Below are positions 22,961 to 46,650 of a stretch of 64,000 nucleotides of DNA, in pieces. The notes below the pieces were generated by a model. It was not told the origin of the DNA. It saw nothing but the letters and a program-made list of their open reading frames with translations, and ran no database searches. The stretch lies in the NCBI GenBank assembly GCA_043799715.1, contig JAZDNM010000003.1:28903-92902 (forward strand). Direction: 5' to 3'. This DNA is from an archaeon (GTDB lineage Archaea > Nanobdellota > Nanobdellia > Pacearchaeales > DTIR01). The position numbers were made by a program, and so were the translations under genes. Numbering within the stretch: position 1 is the first letter of the stretch; each line of letters opens with the position of its first letter.

Positions 22961-22980
22961 TTTACTTTTATCCCTTCATG

Positions 22981-23015
22981 AATCAGAACCAATTGATATT
23001 GGTTCCGATACCTCC
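22981..23015 (-). repeat. R1 hairpin element, copy A (35 nt, identical to the copy at 31979-32013)
   Basis: The plus-strand sequence is aatcagaaccaattgatattggttccgatacctcc. In the sense of local transcription (minus strand) it reads GGAGGTATCGGAACCAAT-ATCA-ATTGGTTCTGATT, a 12-bp stem. It lies between the rtcB stop and the first gene of the Hxs-like operon. Confidence 0.7.
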
Positions 23016-24532: not shown

Positions 24533-25732
24533 GTGGTAAAAGCTATGAGAACAACAGAAGAATATTTTAATTCATACAGGCAGGTTCAAAAGGGTTCTTT
24601 TAGAATATTGGGCAATGAGAACAAAGAAATAGAGGAGTTCAGAACAGTTGAGATAAGGCAGCAGCCGTTATTCAGGCAGTATTCAACTCTTATATGTGTT
24701 GAAAGGGCAAACAGGCCTGTAAATTTCAACCATAGCTCTAACCTTTACACCAAGGGGCATATTCAGGACGTTGTTAGTAAGATGCTCCAAAGCAATATGG
24801 ATGGAATAAATTTAGAGAAAGCAGTTGAAAATGAACTTCTAAAAATTGACCAGAGTGAAGAAAAAAAGAAAAGAGACAAATGCCCTTTCTGCTACCCTAA
24901 CCTGGAGAAGGTAACGCCAAATCCCAAGAAGATGCATAATAGCGGGCTTACAATAGAGGATTCTGAGTTTAAACTTGCGAAAATGCCTGAATCAAAAGTA
25001 ATCAGTGTTCCCAATCTCTATCCATTTACTGTTCCTCATTGGGTTACTATCTTTGCAAAACACAAGCCGGACTTGCAGGAATTGAACTTTCAGGATATTT
25101 TCAATTATATCGAAAGCGGGTATGAAATCGCGAAAGAGATAAAATTTATAGAAGGTGTTGATGGCATGTGGGATATAATAAACTGGGGTCCTGAAGCCGC
25201 TGCTTCCCAACCGCATCCGCATGCCCAGCGAGGGGGCATAGCAACAATGATGATTACTGAAATGGACAGAGAAATAGAAAAATGCACTGCCGCAAAAAAA
25301 TACCTTATGGATGACCCATTTGAGCATTATATGAATAGAATAAGGCAAAGCGCCTTATTTGGTTTTGAGAATGAGCACATACTTATTCATGCACCATTCG
25401 CACCAAAATTTCCGCATTCAATAGATATAATATGCAAGAGAAAAGCGGGCAATATACTTGATTTAAATGAACATGAAAGGAAGGTAATTGCGCACAGCAT
25501 GCTTGGTGTTTTCCACTTGCTTTATAACCGATGCGGGGTCAGGGACTTGAATGTTGTAACGCACCAAACAAGATTAAACAGCAAGAACGAGTCGGATTAT
25601 CATCTTCATTGGCACTTTATGCCCAGAAATCTCAACAAGCTTGGAGGAGTAGAAATAAATCTGAATAATTTTGTGGTTTCAGTTTTTCCAGAAGCAACAG
25701 CAAAAGAGATAAAAACACATTACAAGGTCTAA
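24533..25732 (+). CDS. GalT-branch HIT-superfamily nucleotidyltransferase/phosphorylase-like protein
   Basis: It has the zinc motif DKCPFC, the active-site-like SQPHPHAQ (His-Pro-His), and a second HLHWHFMPR. The track start is GTG, and an alternative ATG lies at 24545. Confidence 0.6.
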   Translation: MVKAMRTTEEYFNSYRQVQKGSFRILGNENKEIEEFRTVEIRQQPLFRQYSTLICVERANRPVNFNHSSNLYTKGHIQDVVSKMLQSNMDGINLEKAVENELLKIDQSEEKKKRDKCPFCYPNLEKVTPNPKKMHNSGLTIEDSEFKLAKMPESKVISVPNLYPFTVPHWVTIFAKHKPDLQELNFQDIFNYIESGYEIAKEIKFIEGVDGMWDIINWGPEAAASQPHPHAQRGGIATMMITEMDREIEKCTAAKKYLMDDPFEHYMNRIRQSALFGFENEHILIHAPFAPKFPHSIDIICKRKAGNILDLNEHERKVIAHSMLGVFHLLYNRCGVRDLNVVTHQTRLNSKNESDYHLHWHFMPRNLNKLGGVEINLNNFVVSVFPEATAKEIKTHYKV

Positions 25733-25736
25733 TTCA

Positions 25737-26162
25737 TCACAAGTCAACAACAACCTGCGCTGAAAACTTGCCTTTCTCTTTTTTTATCAGCATGCTGTTG
25801 TATGTGACTGCCTTTACCTCTCCGAATGTTTCATATTTCTTTGAGTTGTCCCCGAGAATTTCTGCTTCAAGCACGTATTTCCCTTCATTTCCTGAGATTT
25901 TCATTTTTTCAATCCTGCATGCAAGGAAATTTTTGGAATCAAGCAGGAATATAACCTCCTCAAGAAAATTATAAAGCAGGGATTCAGGATTTTTTGCCTT
26001 AACTTTTATCTTTTTGCTTGTTTTTCTGATTATTTTGCTGGTTTCGCACATCAAGTTCAGCATCGCCATTGCTGAATTGCTGAATGCCTCTTCCAGTGTC
26101 CTGCCTGTTGCAATGAACTTGCCGTCTGCAGTGTGCTCAAGATATCTGTATCCTTTTGCCAT
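25737..26162 (-). CDS. Archease (RtcB activator)
   Basis: The N-terminus YRYLEHTADGKFIATGRTLEEAF matches the archease signature EHTAD...G.tleE. Confidence 0.85.
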   Translation of the reverse strand: MAKGYRYLEHTADGKFIATGRTLEEAFSNSAMAMLNLMCETSKIIRKTSKKIKVKAKNPESLLYNFLEEVIFLLDSKNFLACRIEKMKISGNEGKYVLEAEILGDNSKKYETFGEVKAVTYNSMLIKKEKGKFSAQVVVDL

Positions 26163-26183: not shown

Positions 26184-26576
26184 TCACTCTATCCACGCAA
26201 AGAACCTGAGCTTCCTCGGCTCATAATGTATCATTGTTGAAGAAACAAGAATGTCATCAACATAAACTTCCTTTTCAGGAAGTTCAATGCTGCATTGCCC
26301 AGCAAGCCCGCATATCTTCACAGTGAAATTTATTCCTGGCGGCATCCTTTCTGTTATGAATGATTTCACAACTGCATCATTGCCTGATAGGGCTGCGCTG
26401 CGCACTGTCTCATTTCTTGCAGCTTCATCAAGTATGCTGTGCTGTATTTTATACATTGATTCTCCAAGGTCATTCTTTTCTGCCTGCTTTCCTATCAGCA
26501 TCAGGATAATTGATGCGAGCATTATTATTGCAATCGCGGCTTCTGCAATCCTTATCCATGCTTTCTTGCTTTTCAT
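26184..26576 (-). CDS. Putative type IV pilin-like protein
   Basis: The N-terminus MKSKKAWIRIAEAAIAIIMLASIILML is class III signal-peptide-like. It is the last gene of the pilus locus. Confidence 0.45.
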   Translation of the reverse strand: MKSKKAWIRIAEAAIAIIMLASIILMLIGKQAEKNDLGESMYKIQHSILDEAARNETVRSAALSGNDAVVKSFITERMPPGINFTVKICGLAGQCSIELPEKEVYVDDILVSSTMIHYEPRKLRFFAWIE

Positions 26577-26590
26577 TTTTTCAGTTTCTT

Positions 26591-26693
26591 CCCGAACTTT
26601 TTAATTTCTCTTTCCGAAGTTTCTCTTTCCGCGAAAAGCTTTTGCTTTTCGGGGCACAGGAAATCTTTGATTTCCTCTGTGAAAGAGAAAGCT
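26591..26693 (-). repeat. R2 element, intergenic copy (tRNA-intron-like structured spacer between two pilin-like genes)
   Basis: The minus-sense sequence is AGCTTTCTCTTTC...AAAGAGAAACTTCGGAAAGAGAAATTAAAAAGTTCGGG. It shares the blocks AGCTTTCTCTTT and GGAAAGAGAAATTAAAAAG(C/T)T with the tRNA-Trp and tRNA-Glu introns, and it contains two extra internal hairpins. Confidence 0.6.
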
Positions 26694-27425
26694 CTACCAA
26701 ACCTGCATGTTTATCGTTGCCTGGAACACTTCCCCGTTCTCGCGCATTATTTCAGCAGGCAGTTCCCTTGCATTGACTTCAACTTTTTCGGGTTTGCTTG
26801 TGCTCATGCTGATTATCTTCTGCTTTGTTGCTGAATCTATTATTTCTGCTGAAAAATCATAGCTTAAAGGGAAATTGAATGATCCCCTTAATTTAGTATA
26901 ATCACTGCTGTATGCCCTTGCCACTCCCTCCAGTTTTGGAAGATAAAGCACTTCATAAACCCTTGATGCGGCATACTTGTAGTTGCTTATATTCAGGACA
27001 TTGCAGGATATCATCTGCAGCTCAGGGATTGTAAAAATCACGCTGCCGTAGTACAGGTAATAATAACTCTGTCCTGAAGCGCCTTTCTCTATTTTTAGAC
27101 TGCCGCTGTCAAGTGCTGTCTTCGATACTCTCCCATTGCTGTCTTTTGCAAGTATATTTGCCCTGTTGCTTGTGTCAAATGGATTTGGGATTGTGAAGCA
27201 GTTCTCAAAGCCTGCTTTTATGTTCAACGGCATTTCAATAAGCTGAATTGTTGCGTTGCTCTGCAGGCTGTTTTGGACAGCATCAAGAAGAACATCCGAG
27301 ATATCCTGGTTCCTTACTGGATTAAGGAAAAACAGCAGGAAAAATACAAATGAAGCAAACAGCATAAAAGATACAACCATCTCTATGTGGCTCACTCCTT
27401 TTTTACTTGTCATTTTTATTGTCAT
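26694..27425 (-). CDS. Putative type IV pilin-like protein
   Basis: The N-terminus SKKG/VSHIEMVVSFMLFASFVFFLLFF has Gly at -1, Glu at +5 and a hydrophobic helix, as in class III (prepilin) signals. Confidence 0.5.
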   Translation of the reverse strand: MTIKMTSKKGVSHIEMVVSFMLFASFVFFLLFFLNPVRNQDISDVLLDAVQNSLQSNATIQLIEMPLNIKAGFENCFTIPNPFDTSNRANILAKDSNGRVSKTALDSGSLKIEKGASGQSYYYLYYGSVIFTIPELQMISCNVLNISNYKYAASRVYEVLYLPKLEGVARAYSSDYTKLRGSFNFPLSYDFSAEIIDSATKQKIISMSTSKPEKVEVNARELPAEIMRENGEVFQATINMQVW

Positions 27426-31974: not shown

Positions 31975-31978
31975 TCTT

Positions 31979-32013
31979 AATCAGAACCAATTGATATTGG
32001 TTCCGATACCTCC
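31979..32013 (-). repeat. R1 hairpin element, copy B (identical 35-mer)
   Basis: It is the same 35 nt as 22981-23015. It lies between the 114-aa gene stop and the 181-aa gene start, 4 nt upstream of the ATG. Confidence 0.7.
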
Positions 32014-32030
32014 ATAAATATAAACAATTT

Positions 32031-32417: not shown

Positions 32418-32570
32418 TGGGGACAGGGCGAATCGAACGCCCAACCGACGGTTTCTTCGCTATTGTAGTTTCTTTCTACTTCCAAGCTTTTTAATTTCTC
32501 TTTCCAAGGTTTCTCTTTTGAAAGAGAAAGCTTTCTGGAGCCGTCCGTTTTACCATTAAACTATGCCCCC
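32418..32570 (-). tRNA. tRNA-Trp (CCA) with an intron of about 81 nt at the canonical 37/38 position
   Basis: Manual fold: acceptor GGGGGCA/TGTCCCC, anticodon stem GACGG/CCGTC, loop CTCCAGA, T arm GGGCG-TTCGATT-CGCCC, discriminator A. The intron spans about 32453-32533. Confidence 0.85.
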
Positions 32571-36361: not shown

Positions 36362-36410
36362 TCTGGCTGAATATTAATTATAAATCAAAAAACAAAAGTT
36401 GCTGGTCTAT

Positions 36411-36681
36411 TATAAAAACCAAAAAATCCAAAAGGATTTTAGGGTGCTCAGAAATGTTAAACATTTCTGACATAATAGAAAAGCCAGCCAACTTTAATCA
36501 TAATAGTGGAGGTATCTTAACACTCTTGAAGGGAAAGTATCGGAAACCGTAGGTTTCTGATAAAGAAAACCCTTAGAGGACCTTCCCGCGTATTCAAAAA
36601 GAACTGCGTCAAGGTCCTCTTGGGTAAAAAGAGGTGATACTATTTTCAAGGAACTACACTTTATAAATCTTTCGGTTTTGT
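36411..36681. ncRNA. Unassigned structured, non-coding locus (candidate ncRNA or long structured UTR; orientation unresolved)
   Basis: A 22-nt BRE/TATA-like box at 36660-36681 is identical to the one upstream of the S-layer-like gene (minus orientation). Several hairpins are present: 36448-36471, 36537-36562 (R1-like), 36576-36619 and 36615-36636. A hairpin plus T-run in minus sense lies at 36411-36440. No credible ORF is present. Confidence 0.3.
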
Positions 36682-36774
36682 TGTCTTTGAGTAGTGACAG
36701 CATTCTATTCTTTCCTGTTTTCCGTCCTGGCAGCAGGACAAAAGGATTTTAAACTTTTGATTGCTCTGAGTTCA

Positions 36775-38718: not shown

Positions 38719-38802
38719 GGCGGAAGGAGAGAATCGGACTCTCTTTTAGCGGGTTCTGCAGATTTCCACAGCCGCTTGTTCTGCCATTAAACTACATCCG
38801 CC
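38719..38802 (-). tRNA. tRNA-His (GTG) with encoded G-1 and a 12-nt intron
   Basis: G-1 pairs with C73. The acceptor is GCGGATG/CTTCCGC with one U-U, the anticodon stem is AGCGG/CCGCT and the loop is CTGTGG. Intron AAATCTGCAGAA (38754-38765) gives a good bulge-helix-bulge, with CTGT pairing to GCAG. The T loop TCCGATT is atypical. Confidence 0.8.
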
Positions 38803-42189: not shown

Positions 42190-42348
42190 GCGGGGATGCC
42201 GGAGTGGCCAAACGGGCAGGACTCAGAAGAAGGTATCGGAAACCTTGGTTTCTGATGTGCCAAACTTAAGGTCCTTCGGAGAAACGGGAAAAGGGATGTG
42301 AAATCCTGTGGCTTAGTGCCTGCGTAGGTTCGATTCCTACTCCCCGCA
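42190..42348 (+). tRNA. tRNA-Leu (CAG), class II, with an intron of about 75 nt at 37/38
   Basis: The acceptor is GCGGGGA/TCCCCGC, the anticodon stem CAGGA/TCCTG and the loop CTCAGA. It has a long variable arm and T arm GTAGG-TTCGATT-CCTAC. The intron spans about 42228-42302 and carries an R1-like hairpin at 42230-42257. Confidence 0.85.
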
Positions 42349-45180: not shown

Positions 45181-45321
45181 GGGCCTGTAGCTCAGCCAGG
45201 TTTAGAGCGCCTGTCTTATACGACGGTAAGAGGATACTCTTATCAATTGGATAAAGTAATCTTTATCAGAAAGTTGCTCTAAGCAAGCAGGTGGCCCGAG
45301 GTTCGAATCCTCGCAGGCCCA
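45181..45321 (+). tRNA. tRNA-Ile (TAT) with an intron of about 65 nt at 37/38
   Basis: The acceptor is GGGCCTG/CAGGCCC, the anticodon stem CCTGT/GCAGG and the loop CTTATA. A bulge-helix-bulge can be drawn, with C32-A35 pairing to intron TAAG and bulges TA|C and CA|A. The anticodon call depends on this intron placement. Confidence 0.7.
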
Positions 45322-45373: not shown

Positions 45374-45491
45374 GCCCCTTTAGTCTAGAGGCCCAGGATA
45401 GAGCCCTTTCGATGAGCTTTCTCTTTAGGAAAGAGAAATTAAAAAGTTCAATAGAAAGGCTTTGACACGGGTTCGAATCCCGTAGGGGGCA
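45374..45491 (+). tRNA. tRNA-Glu (TTC) with an intron of about 45 nt at 37/38
   Basis: The acceptor is GCCCCTT/AGGGGGC, the anticodon stem GAGCC/GGCTT and the loop CTTTCG. The T arm is ACGGG-TTCGAAT-CCCGT. The intron (about 45412-45456) contains R2 blocks. Confidence 0.8.
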
Positions 45492-46516: not shown

Positions 46517-46650
46517 GCCTCCGTAGCTCAGCTGGCAGAGCACGGCTTTCGTAAAGCTTTTCTTTGCTAAAGAAAACCTTGGAAAAGAAAAGTCTGTAGG
46601 AAACTACTTGAAAAAAGCTGGGGTCGCAGGTTCAAATCCTGCCGGAGGCT
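46517..46650 (+). tRNA. tRNA-Thr (CGT) with an intron of about 61 nt at 37/38
   Basis: The acceptor is GCCTCCG/CGGAGGC, the anticodon stem CGGCT/AGCTG and the loop TTCGTA. The T arm is GCAGG-TTCAAAT-CCTGC. The intron (about 46554-46614) is homologous to the tRNA-Trp intron. Confidence 0.85.

What the first reader, a model, noticed from the sequence alone, without database searches (positions are those of the whole stretch)
26591..26693. R2: tRNA-intron sequence family also present as a structured spacer between two pilin-like genes
The introns of tRNA-Trp (about 32453-32533), tRNA-Glu (about 45412-45456) and, in diverged form, tRNA-Thr (about 46554-46614) share several blocks. These are AGCTTTCTCTTT, its complement AAAGAGAAA, CCTTGGAAAGAGAAATTAAAAAGCT, and in Trp/Thr GTAG.AA..ACTAC. 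The same blocks, in the same order and in the sense of transcription, make up the 103-nt spacer between the two pilin-like genes. That spacer reads AGCTTTCTCTTTC, two extra hairpins, then AAAGAGAAACTTCGGAAAGAGAAATTAAAAAGTTCGGG, and ends 15 nt before the ATG of the last pilin gene. So homologous intron-type RNA is embedded in an mRNA. It could be excised by the splicing endonuclease with RtcB, act as a processing or stability element that uncouples pilin expression, or be a relic of intron mobility. The AAATTAAAAA box about 30 nt before the ATG could alternatively act as an internal TATA box.
Basis: seen in the sequence. Interest (0 to 1): 0.7.

Follow-up and report, generated by a model that had tools for sequence, protein, structure and literature searches.

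The report
Hairpin-plus-promoter repeats shared with tRNA introns
The spacer between two pilin-like genes of this tiny (DPANN) archaeon is built from two short repeated hairpin elements that also sit between unrelated genes in relatives, and copies of the same elements have recently landed inside tRNA genes as introns, which points to where new archaeal tRNA introns come from.

Summary
A 19-mer (GGAAAGAGAAATTAAAAAG) occurs exactly three times in 64 kb: in the spacer and in the tRNA-Trp and tRNA-Glu introns. tRNA-Thr carries a diverged copy.

The spacer (26577-26693, minus strand) is a composite.
- Module A is the hairpin AGCTTTCTCTTT/AAAGAGAAA, followed by a second AAAGAGAAA and TTAAAAAG.
- Module B is two 10-bp hairpins (26629-26680) nested in A's loop.

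Both modules are dispersed repeats in related Woese/Pacearchaeota-like genomes.
- A sits after a stop codon, with its TATA-like box 25-29 nt before the next ATG (rpoE', rps2, and orthologous pilin spacers). This is the window's usual leaderless-promoter geometry.
- B occurs in at least 8 intergenic places, in both orientations, with compensatory stem changes. One copy lies inside a relative's tRNA-Ile intron.

Orthologous tRNA-Trp and tRNA-Glu genes in relatives lack these introns, so the repeats most likely entered the tRNA genes, not the reverse. No bulge-helix-bulge motif flanks the spacer, so splicing of the mRNA is not supported.

Most likely function: a 3'-end hairpin cassette plus an internal promoter for the 130-aa gene and archease. 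This function is inferred, not shown.

The parts
26694..27425 (-). Upstream cistron: 243-aa pilin-like protein (KKG|VSHIE N-terminus). Its TAG stop (26694-26696) directly abuts the element.
   Evidence: ORF list. Operon context T2SSE/T2SSF. Orthologs of 237-239 aa in L052/L054/L056/L058/L093-95.
26577..26693 (-). Whole 117-nt spacer: module A with module B nested in its loop. Predicted three-way junction.
   Evidence: Sequence. Fold -38.7 kcal/mol, z -4.2. The L052 ortholog gives the same fold.
26681..26693 (-). Module A 5' arm, AGCTTTCTCTTTC.
   Evidence: It pairs with an AAAGAGAAA block in the fold: 26605-26613 in the predicted MFE/centroid, with 26620-26628 as the alternative.
26629..26680 (-). 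Module B: two hairpins (26655-26680 and 26629-26654), one copy of a dispersed repeat family.
   Evidence: nhmmer E=5e-16 and at least 8 other copies in relatives. Covariation in both stems.
26605..26628 (-). AAAGAGAAA-CTTCGG-AAAGAGAAA: the 3' arm of module A and its direct repeat. The second copy sits in the BRE position.
   Evidence: Same arrangement in the Trp intron, L065 and L066.
26597..26604 (-). TATA-like box TTAAAAAG. Its first T is 28 nt before the ATG at 26576.
   Evidence: L065 27 nt, L066 29 nt, L056 25 nt.
26184..26576 (-). Downstream 130-aa pilin-like gene with no Shine-Dalgarno. Presumed leaderless start of a unit that continues into archease.
25737..26162 (-). Archease gene, 21 nt after the 130-aa gene, with no TATA-like hexamer 25-30 nt before its ATG.
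   Evidence: Pfam. Upstream sequence.
32453..32534 (-). tRNA-Trp intron (82 nt): a module A copy plus a GTAG..CTAC hairpin.
   Evidence: 45/46 identical to the L065 intergenic copy.
45412..45456 (+). tRNA-Glu(UUC) intron (45 nt): the short form of module A. Its ends GAGCUU/AAGUUC form the intron-side helix of the BHB.
   Evidence: A relative's tRNA-Glu(UUC) has no intron.
46554..46614 (+). tRNA-Thr(CGU) intron (61 nt): a diverged module A with matching changes in both arms (TTTTCTTT/AAAGAAAA).
42229..42258 (+). Start of the tRNA-Leu intron: a hairpin related to a third repeat, module C (GRAGGTATCGGAAMC...GGTTYCTGAT).
22977..23015 (-). Module C copy 1 nt after the RtcB stop codon. An orthologous copy follows RtcB in L056.
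31977..32016 (-). Module C copy between the 114-aa and 181-aa genes of the pilus operon.

Best explanation
The spacer is not a displaced intron. It is a composite of two short palindromic repeat families that populate intergenic spacers of this DPANN clade.

Module A is a 9-bp hairpin (UUUCUCUUU/AAAGAGAAA) that starts 0-5 nt after a stop codon in four of its five intergenic copies. It is followed by a purine-rich block and a TTAAAAA box 25-29 nt before the next ATG. Module B is a 52-nt pair of hairpins inserted into A's loop.

In the spacer they most likely act as intercistronic punctuation. First, a very stable three-way junction at the 3' end of the 243-aa pilin cistron protects the 3' end or gives partial termination (inferred). 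Second, a BRE/TATA promoter gives a leaderless transcript of the 130-aa gene and archease (inferred from geometry).

Copies of the same repeats have entered the anticodon loops of tRNA genes: A in Trp, Glu and Thr here, B in tRNA-Ile of a relative, and a C-like hairpin in Leu. They survive there because the element's terminal inverted repeat plus the anticodon stem makes a bulge-helix-bulge substrate that is spliced out.

Shown: homology, dispersal, stem covariation, promoter-like geometry, and absence of the introns from orthologous tRNAs. Inferred: promoter activity, the 3'-end function, and the direction and mechanism of copying.
For: Composite nature: alignment and folds.

Orthologous spacers: L052 keeps both hairpins and the closing stem, with changed but still pairing sequence. 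L056 has the short A form.

A at unrelated loci: it lies between a PIN gene and rpoE' (L065, 45/46 identical to the Trp intron core) and upstream of rps2 (L066). None of the true metagenome hits is in a tRNA.

Promoter geometry: the TATA hexamer start peaks at 27-29 nt before the ATG in the window. 20 genes have TATA and no SD, against 8 with SD and no TATA; the 130-aa gene is in the TATA+/SD- class. A TTAAAA-type box also sits 30 nt before tRNA-Thr. L052 lacks the box and instead has GGAG 13 nt before the ATG.

B is dispersed: at least 9 copies in 7 loci, in both orientations, and nested in other palindromes. Four stem pairs carry double changes, with 0/500 shuffles reaching the observed score. 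B lies inside the 109-nt tRNA-Ile intron of L097 but not in the orthologous introns of L099 or the window.

Intron gain: tRNA-Trp is intronless in L054, L058 and L093 and has a 13-nt intron in L056. tRNA-Glu(UUC) is intronless in L097.

Conservation: RtcB fourfold-degenerate sites are only 45-52% identical, and the flanking pilin proteins are 40-65% identical. The modules are about 90-98% identical.
Against: - No transcript data exist, so promoter and 3'-end roles rest on position only.
- The box is ATTAAAAAG, not the commoner TTTAAA(A/T).
- Only 3 of 8 orthologous pilin spacers carry the element, so it is dispensable there.
- All three intron copies and all intergenic A copies are in the sense orientation. 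This could equally indicate an RNA-level constraint or an RNA-mediated mechanism.
- Direction of transfer is inferred from only about 250 kb of relatives and 8 of their tRNA genes.
- No transposase, target-site duplication or conserved target sequence was found.
Confidence: 0.6

Rival explanations
1. The modules are purely selfish or neutral MITE/REP-like palindromic repeats that happen to sit in the spacer. The TATA-like box and the hairpins have no role in expressing the pilin or archease genes.
For: B occurs in both orientations and as tandem arrays inside an operon (L054 4175-4633). Presence among orthologous spacers is patchy, 3 of 8. Insertions are nested. Near-identical copies occur in genomes whose synonymous sites are saturated.
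Against: Four independent intergenic A copies keep the A/T box 25-29 nt before an ATG and lack an SD. The one copy without the box (L052) has an SD-like GGAG. All A copies point towards the downstream gene.
Confidence: 0.2
2. One reading: the spacer is an intron-like RNA that the splicing endonuclease cuts out of the polycistronic mRNA and RtcB re-ligates or circularises.
For: Real homology to three spliced introns. The spacer shares the GAGCUU...AAGUUC closing helix with the Glu intron. The genes for RtcB and archease are adjacent.
Against: A BHB scan that recovers the Glu, Thr and Ile introns finds no comparable motif bracketing the element in any of five spacers. The only candidates use weak G-U central helices or partners inside the downstream ORF. 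L052 lacks the 3' half, including AAGUUC. Excision would join a stop codon to a start region and change no coding sequence.
Confidence: 0.05
3. Module A is a DNA operator. The palindrome TTTCTCTTT-N-AAAGAGAAA plus a third half-site 15 nt on binds a transcription factor next to the BRE/TATA. The intron copies are accidental.
For: A palindrome plus a direct repeat lies immediately upstream of the A/T box. Sequence conservation is very high across genomes and upstream of housekeeping genes such as rpoE' and rps2.
Against: A 52-nt insertion splits the palindrome in the window and in L052, yet the arms still co-vary so as to pair. The Thr intron changes both arms in concert (TTTTCTTT/AAAGAAAA), which a single factor's half-sites would not favour.
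Confidence: 0.08
4. Intron mimicry. The intron-like RNA in front of archease, and module C/B hairpins behind RtcB, titrate or sense the splicing machinery and feed back on archease/RtcB expression.
For: The element lies upstream of the 130-aa gene and archease unit. Modules C and B lie directly after RtcB in the window and in L056. All six tRNAs in the window need splicing.
Against: Sampling was anchored on RtcB, so there is ascertainment bias. Other copies flank unrelated genes: rpoE', rps2, a PMT_2 glycosyltransferase, and T2SSE/T2SSF. Five of eight relatives have no element before archease.
Confidence: 0.07

Closest known systems
tRNA intron 'transposition' families of Thermoproteales (Fujishima et al. 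2010, as summarised in PMC4090602)
   Same: Near-identical introns sit in tRNAs of different isoacceptors (Trp, Glu, Thr). They are absent from orthologous tRNAs of relatives, are bounded by BHB motifs, and their gain is thought to occur at the DNA level.
   Different: Here the intron sequences have homologs outside tRNA genes: intergenic repeats, one of which carries a promoter-like box. The lineage is DPANN and all insertions are at the canonical 37/38 site. The review states that the mechanism and source of transposed introns are unknown.
Bacterial REP/BIME-type extragenic palindromes and MITEs
   Same: Short (about 25-55 nt) imperfect palindromes that are multicopy and intergenic, often lie just after stop codons, occur singly or in tandem, and take both orientations (module B). 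Stems are kept by compensatory change. A plausible role is protecting the 3' end of mRNA.
   Different: No RAYT/IS200-IS605-type transposase, terminal inverted repeat with target duplication, or conserved 5' tetranucleotide was identified. The host is an archaeon with a small genome. Copies also occur inside tRNA introns.
Reused or 'mobile' promoters in prokaryotes (PMC3575422)
   Same: A highly similar promoter-bearing segment lies upstream of non-homologous genes (130-aa pilin-like, rpoE', rps2, LamG protein), within and between genomes.
   Different: The segment is coupled to a hairpin and is also found inside tRNA genes. Promoter activity is untested.
Split and recently split archaeal tRNA genes (Nanoarchaeum, Caldiarchaeum; PMC3218864, PMC3293823)
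   Same: The disruption is at 37/38, and a promoter would be needed in front of a 3' half. The intron-gain model involves integration of foreign or mobile DNA.
   Different: The genes here are continuous. The intron-borne box lies only 21 nt (Glu) or 45 nt (Trp) before the 3' exon. No separate halves were seen.

Membership tests
Archaeal BHB intron (applied to the spacer itself) | Bulge-helix-bulge (3-nt bulge, 4-bp helix, 3-nt bulge, with flanking helices) at both boundaries | tested here: not met
   The scan recovers the Glu, Thr and Ile introns. It gives no comparable bracket for the spacer in the window, L052, L056, L065 or L066.
Archaeal BHB intron (applied to the spacer itself) | Interrupts a functional RNA or reading frame that is restored by excision | tested here: not met
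   The element lies wholly between the TAG at 26694-26696 and the ATG at 26576.
Archaeal BHB intron (applied to the spacer itself) | Excised and ligated or circular RNA detectable | not testable with these tools
   No transcript data are available.
Archaeal BRE/TATA promoter of a leaderless mRNA | A/T-rich box about 25-30 bp upstream of the start point (here the ATG) | tested here: met
   The first T is 28 nt before the ATG. The window-wide peak is 27-29 nt. Other A copies give 25, 27 and 29 nt.
Archaeal BRE/TATA promoter of a leaderless mRNA | Purine-rich BRE directly upstream and no Shine-Dalgarno before the ATG | tested here: inconclusive
   AAAGAGAAA abuts the box, and the gene is in the TATA+/SD- class, 20 genes against 8 SD-only. 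The clade's BRE consensus is not established.
Archaeal BRE/TATA promoter of a leaderless mRNA | Mapped transcription start | not testable with these tools
   Needs dRNA-seq or Cappable-seq.
REP/MITE-like dispersed palindromic repeat | Multicopy, dispersed, mostly intergenic | tested here: met
   Module B: at least 9 copies in 7 loci. Module A: 4 copies in the window plus L052, L056, L065 and L066.
REP/MITE-like dispersed palindromic repeat | Palindromic stems kept by compensatory change | tested here: met
   Module B: 93.8% of cells paired, 4 pairs with double changes, covariation 0/500 shuffles, and slid controls far lower.
REP/MITE-like dispersed palindromic repeat | Either orientation relative to flanking genes | tested here: inconclusive
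   Met for B (antisense copies in L054). Not met for A, whose 8 copies are all sense.
REP/MITE-like dispersed palindromic repeat | Cognate transposase, or terminal repeats with target-site duplication | not tested
   No duplication or common target is visible at the 7 B junctions inspected. Transposase genes were not searched for.
Transposed tRNA intron family | Similar introns in tRNAs of different identity | tested here: met
   Trp, Glu and Thr.
Transposed tRNA intron family | Intron absent from orthologous tRNA in relatives (recent gain) | tested here: met
   Trp: L054, L058 and L093 are intronless and L056 has an unrelated 13-nt intron. Glu(UUC): L097 is intronless. Thr was not examined.
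Transposed tRNA intron family | BHB at the exon-intron junctions | tested here: met
   Glu has central helix 3/4 and flanking helices 4+4. Thr has central helix 4/4. Trp is only relaxed, with a 4-nt bulge (my reading, 51 sequence).

The most novel reading that the evidence does not exclude
In this DPANN lineage, new tRNA introns are born when short intergenic palindromic cassettes, including one that carries a BRE/TATA promoter, are copied into anticodon loops. The cassettes seem to prefer hairpin loops: module B sits in the loop of module A and of another palindrome, and module A sits in anticodon loops. This would identify a concrete non-tRNA source for archaeal intron gain. It would also mean that some introns already carry a promoter in front of the 3' half, which makes them ready-made intermediates towards split tRNA genes.
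Probability: 0.35. Interest if true: 0.8.

Novelty: new variant of a known kind. Interest (0 to 1): 0.6.

Why it matters
Similar introns in different archaeal tRNAs have been known since 2010. The review read here (PMC4090602) states that the mechanism of this 'intron transposition' is unknown, and it names no donor sequence outside tRNA genes. This window and its relatives supply such donors. Two, probably three, families of intergenic hairpin repeats reappear as the body of tRNA introns that orthologous tRNAs lack. That makes the origin of BHB introns testable by whole-genome scans and by phylogeny of the copies. It also links intron gain to REP/MITE-like repeat dynamics in very small genomes. 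Locally, it gives a simple reading of the pilin operon: a punctuation cassette that separates the pilin cistron from the 130-aa gene and archease unit.

Tried and rejected
- ARAGORN with default settings found no tRNA. Rfam and aragorn -i were needed.
- A scan of genome contigs with the 19-mer returned 51 single hits in unrelated bacteria, all consistent with chance. The one Nanoarchaeota hit is inside coding sequence. The source genome is not among those representatives.
- Exact-protein look-ups of the 130-aa protein and of the source RtcB found nothing, so the rest of the 352,935-bp source contig could not be read.
- Rfam at permissive thresholds gave only noise for the spacer.
- Viral contigs have no module B copy, and their three A-pattern hits look like chance hairpins.
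- Pfam and NCBIfam do not recognise either pilin-like protein.
- I considered and rejected: a C/D-box sRNA (no C/D boxes), a hammerhead-type three-way junction (no core motifs), a bacterial-type intrinsic terminator (no U-run after the hairpins), and a degraded tRNA gene (the flanks are coding).
- I did not build a covariance model, because nhmmer --max already separated the copies from background.
- YchF-anchored loci were not syntenic with the window's tRNA cluster. They did supply a relative's tRNA-Glu and tRNA-Ile genes.

Full report
**Observation**

- The 19-mer GGAAAGAGAAATTAAAAAG is exact at 26597-26615(-), 32487-32505(-) and 45428-45446(+). Shuffles expect 0.15 matches, and 0/100 reach three.
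- AGCTTTCTCTTT is exact at the 5' end of the same three elements.
- Rfam finds six tRNA genes. ARAGORN at default settings had found none.
- With intron search on, all six tRNAs have introns: Trp 82 nt, His 12, Leu 75, a fourth tRNA 65, Glu 45, Thr 61.
- A profile of the shared core, scanned without filters, hits only four places in the 64 kb: Trp intron, spacer, Glu intron and, weakly, Thr intron.
- The bare 9-mer AAAGAGAAA is commoner, with 16 matches of which 8 lie outside the elements. The composite is therefore specific, not generic low complexity.

**Setting**

RtcB of the window is 100% identical to an NCBI 'MAG: archaeon' protein. The best named relatives are Woese/Pacearchaeota.

On the minus strand the gene order is: tRNA-Trp, two small genes, a T2SSE ATPase, two T2SSF proteins, a 243-aa and a 130-aa protein with pilin-type N-termini, then archease. 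RtcB follows after an inserted plus-strand gene. This order is conserved in eight related contigs, with RtcB 75-79% identical.

**Anatomy of the spacer (26577-26693, minus strand)**

The sequence reads: TAG | AGCTTTCTCTTTC | ACAGAGGAAATCAAAGATTTCCTGTG | CCCCGAAAAGCAAAAGCTTTTCGCGG | AAAGAGAAA CTTCGG AAAGAGAAA TTAAAAAG TTCGGGAAGAAACTGAAAA | ATG.

It folds into a three-way junction at -38.7 kcal/mol, z = -4.2. I call the outer part module A and the two inner hairpins (26629-26680) module B.

**Orthologous spacers**

- L052 keeps both B hairpins, with a G-C to U-A switch in hairpin 2. It also keeps a closing stem of altered but still pairing sequence, and gives the same fold. It lacks the TTAAAAAG box and has GGAG 13 nt before the ATG instead.
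- L056 has the short form of A: AGCTTTCTCTTT-AAAAAG-GAGAAA...CTTAAAAAAT, 25 nt before the ATG of a different (LamG) gene.
- Five other relatives have spacers of 2-66 nt or overlapping genes, with no element.

**Module A elsewhere**

One metagenome scan with an A-specific pattern gave 34 loci. Three are true relatives, and none is in a tRNA.
- L065 lies between a PIN-domain gene's stop codon and rpoE'. It is 45/46 identical to the Trp-intron core, and its box starts 27 nt before the ATG.
- L066 (duplicated as L076) lies upstream of ribosomal protein S2, with TTTAAAAA 29 nt before the ATG.
- L072 is the L056 spacer.

In the window itself, a TT[TA]A[TA]A hexamer starts 27-29 nt before the ATG in 20 of 51 occurrences across 37 genes. 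Of 66 ORFs, 20 have such a box and no Shine-Dalgarno, 8 have a Shine-Dalgarno only, and 2 have both. The 130-aa gene is box-positive and SD-negative. A TTAAAA-type box also lies 30 nt before tRNA-Thr.

Module A's 3' half therefore has the geometry of this organism's leaderless promoters. Archease, 21 nt downstream of the 130-aa gene, has no TATA-like hexamer 25-30 nt before its ATG.

**Module B is a dispersed repeat**

nhmmer finds strong copies at the following places.
- The window and L052 spacers.
- Directly after RtcB in L056, preceded there by a third hairpin repeat, module C.
- Between convergent genes in L058.
- Near the end of L097. In both L058 and L097 it is nested in the loop of a longer palindrome that is nearly identical between the two genomes.
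- L072.
- Tandem arrays of three to four hairpins in L054, antisense to the operon.

On an alignment of eight copies, 93.8% of cells pair. Four pairs show changes on both sides, and no shuffle of 500 reaches the covariation score. Sliding the partners drops pairing to 28-58%.

The 109-nt intron of tRNA-Ile(UAU) in L097/L098 contains a full B copy. The orthologous introns of L099 (63 nt) and of the window (65 nt) lack it. B is therefore a discrete insertion of about 53 nt that can sit in an intron or in a spacer.

**Introns**

- The intronless tRNA-Trp genes of L054, L058 and L093 have the same exons as the window's gene. L056 has an unrelated 13-nt intron.
- tRNA-Glu(UUC) of L097 is intronless.
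- A BHB scan places proper motifs at the Glu, Thr and Ile introns. In Glu, the intron-side helix is the element's own terminal inverted repeat, UGAGCUU/AAGUUCA.
- Trp is only a relaxed BHB.
- The Thr copy changes both hairpin arms together, TTTTCTTT/AAAGAAAA.
- The tRNA-Leu intron begins with a hairpin related to module C. Module C also lies 1 nt after the RtcB stop and between two operon genes.

**Is the spacer spliced?**

The same scan finds no comparable BHB bracketing the element in five spacers. The candidates use G-U-rich central helices or partners inside the downstream ORF. The L052 ortholog lacks the 3' half, and the element interrupts nothing. Splicing is not supported, though only RNA data can exclude it.

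**Conservation**

- Between the window and its relatives, RtcB fourfold-degenerate sites are 45-52% identical.
- The flanking pilin-like proteins are 40-65% identical.
- The modules are about 90-98% identical.
- This implies either strong constraint or ongoing copying between sites and genomes.

**Mechanism**

Most likely (0.6), the spacer is a punctuation cassette built from dispersed repeats. A stable 3' structure follows the pilin cistron, and an internal leaderless promoter serves the 130-aa gene and archease. Copies of the same repeats have entered tRNA anticodon loops and persist as spliceable introns.

The rivals are: neutral selfish repeats (0.2), a transcription-factor operator (0.08), intron mimicry feeding back on archease/RtcB (0.07), and true excision (0.05). 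The steps from geometry to function, and the copying mechanism, are inferences.

**Comparison with known systems**

- Similar introns across tRNAs are known from Thermoproteales. The review read here calls the mechanism unknown.
- A mobile-element model of intron gain exists for Caldiarchaeum.
- Reused promoters are known in prokaryotes.
- I found no report of DPANN intergenic hairpin repeats shared with tRNA introns. That search covers open-access text only.

**Limits**

- Only 64 kb of the source genome and about 250 kb of relatives were read.
- Loci were anchored on RtcB and YchF, so sampling is biased towards those neighbourhoods.
- Whether L065 and L054 come from one genome is unknown.
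- No expression data exist.

Noticed in passing
window 22977-23015(-), 31977-32016(-), 42229-42258(+), 36535-36563(+); L056 11430-11458: A third repeated hairpin, module C (GGAGGTATCGGAACCAAT-NTC-AATTGGTTCTGATT). It lies 1 nt after the RtcB stop in the window and in L056, and between two pilus-operon genes. A related form opens the tRNA-Leu intron. It starts with a perfect Shine-Dalgarno-like GGAGG about 40 nt before the next ATG.
   Followed up: partly
window 36362-36774: A 413-nt stretch without ORFs and full of hairpins, including a module-C-like one. No Rfam match even at E<=1. It could be an unrecognised structured RNA or a cluster of repeats.
   Followed up: partly
window 45181-45321 (+): ARAGORN calls this tRNA Ala(TGC). 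BHB-guided splice sites give the anticodon loop CUUAUAA, which is tRNA-Ile(UAU), matching the orthologs in L097 and L099. tRNA-Ile(UAU) is an uncommon isoacceptor.
   Followed up: partly
window, all six tRNA genes (32418-32570, 38719-38801, 42190-42348, 45181-45321, 45374-45491, 46517-46650): Every tRNA gene in the window has an intron (12-82 nt), so default tRNA finders miss them all. Relatives have fewer or shorter introns in the orthologs examined.
   Followed up: yes
L093 7597-8484 and L096 970-1854; window 24533-25732(+); L095 4784-6478(-): The gap between archease and RtcB is a variable slot. It holds a free-standing LAGLIDADG_3 ORF in two relatives, a HIT/GalT-like gene in the window, a phosphorylase in L095, and nothing in the others.
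   Followed up: no
Gene after the 237-243-aa pilin-like gene: window 26184-26576; L054 7681-8748; L056 7337-9154: The cistron after the conserved pilin-like gene is swapped between relatives. It is a 130-136-aa pilin-like protein, or a 353-605-aa Laminin_G_3 protein, or both. Module A sits at this junction only where a spacer exists.
   Followed up: partly
L054 4175-4633 (-): Tandem array of three to four module-B-type hairpins, antisense to the operon, on both sides of the conserved 56-aa gene between T2SSE and T2SSF. One called 51-aa ORF overlaps a repeat and is probably spurious.
   Followed up: partly
L058 15790-15900 and L097 15600-15720: A composite of about 110 nt, with module B nested in the palindrome AAGAACAC..ACTCCACA / TGTGGAGT.GTGTTCTT, is almost identical in two different genomes. 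It looks like a larger mobile unit.
   Followed up: no
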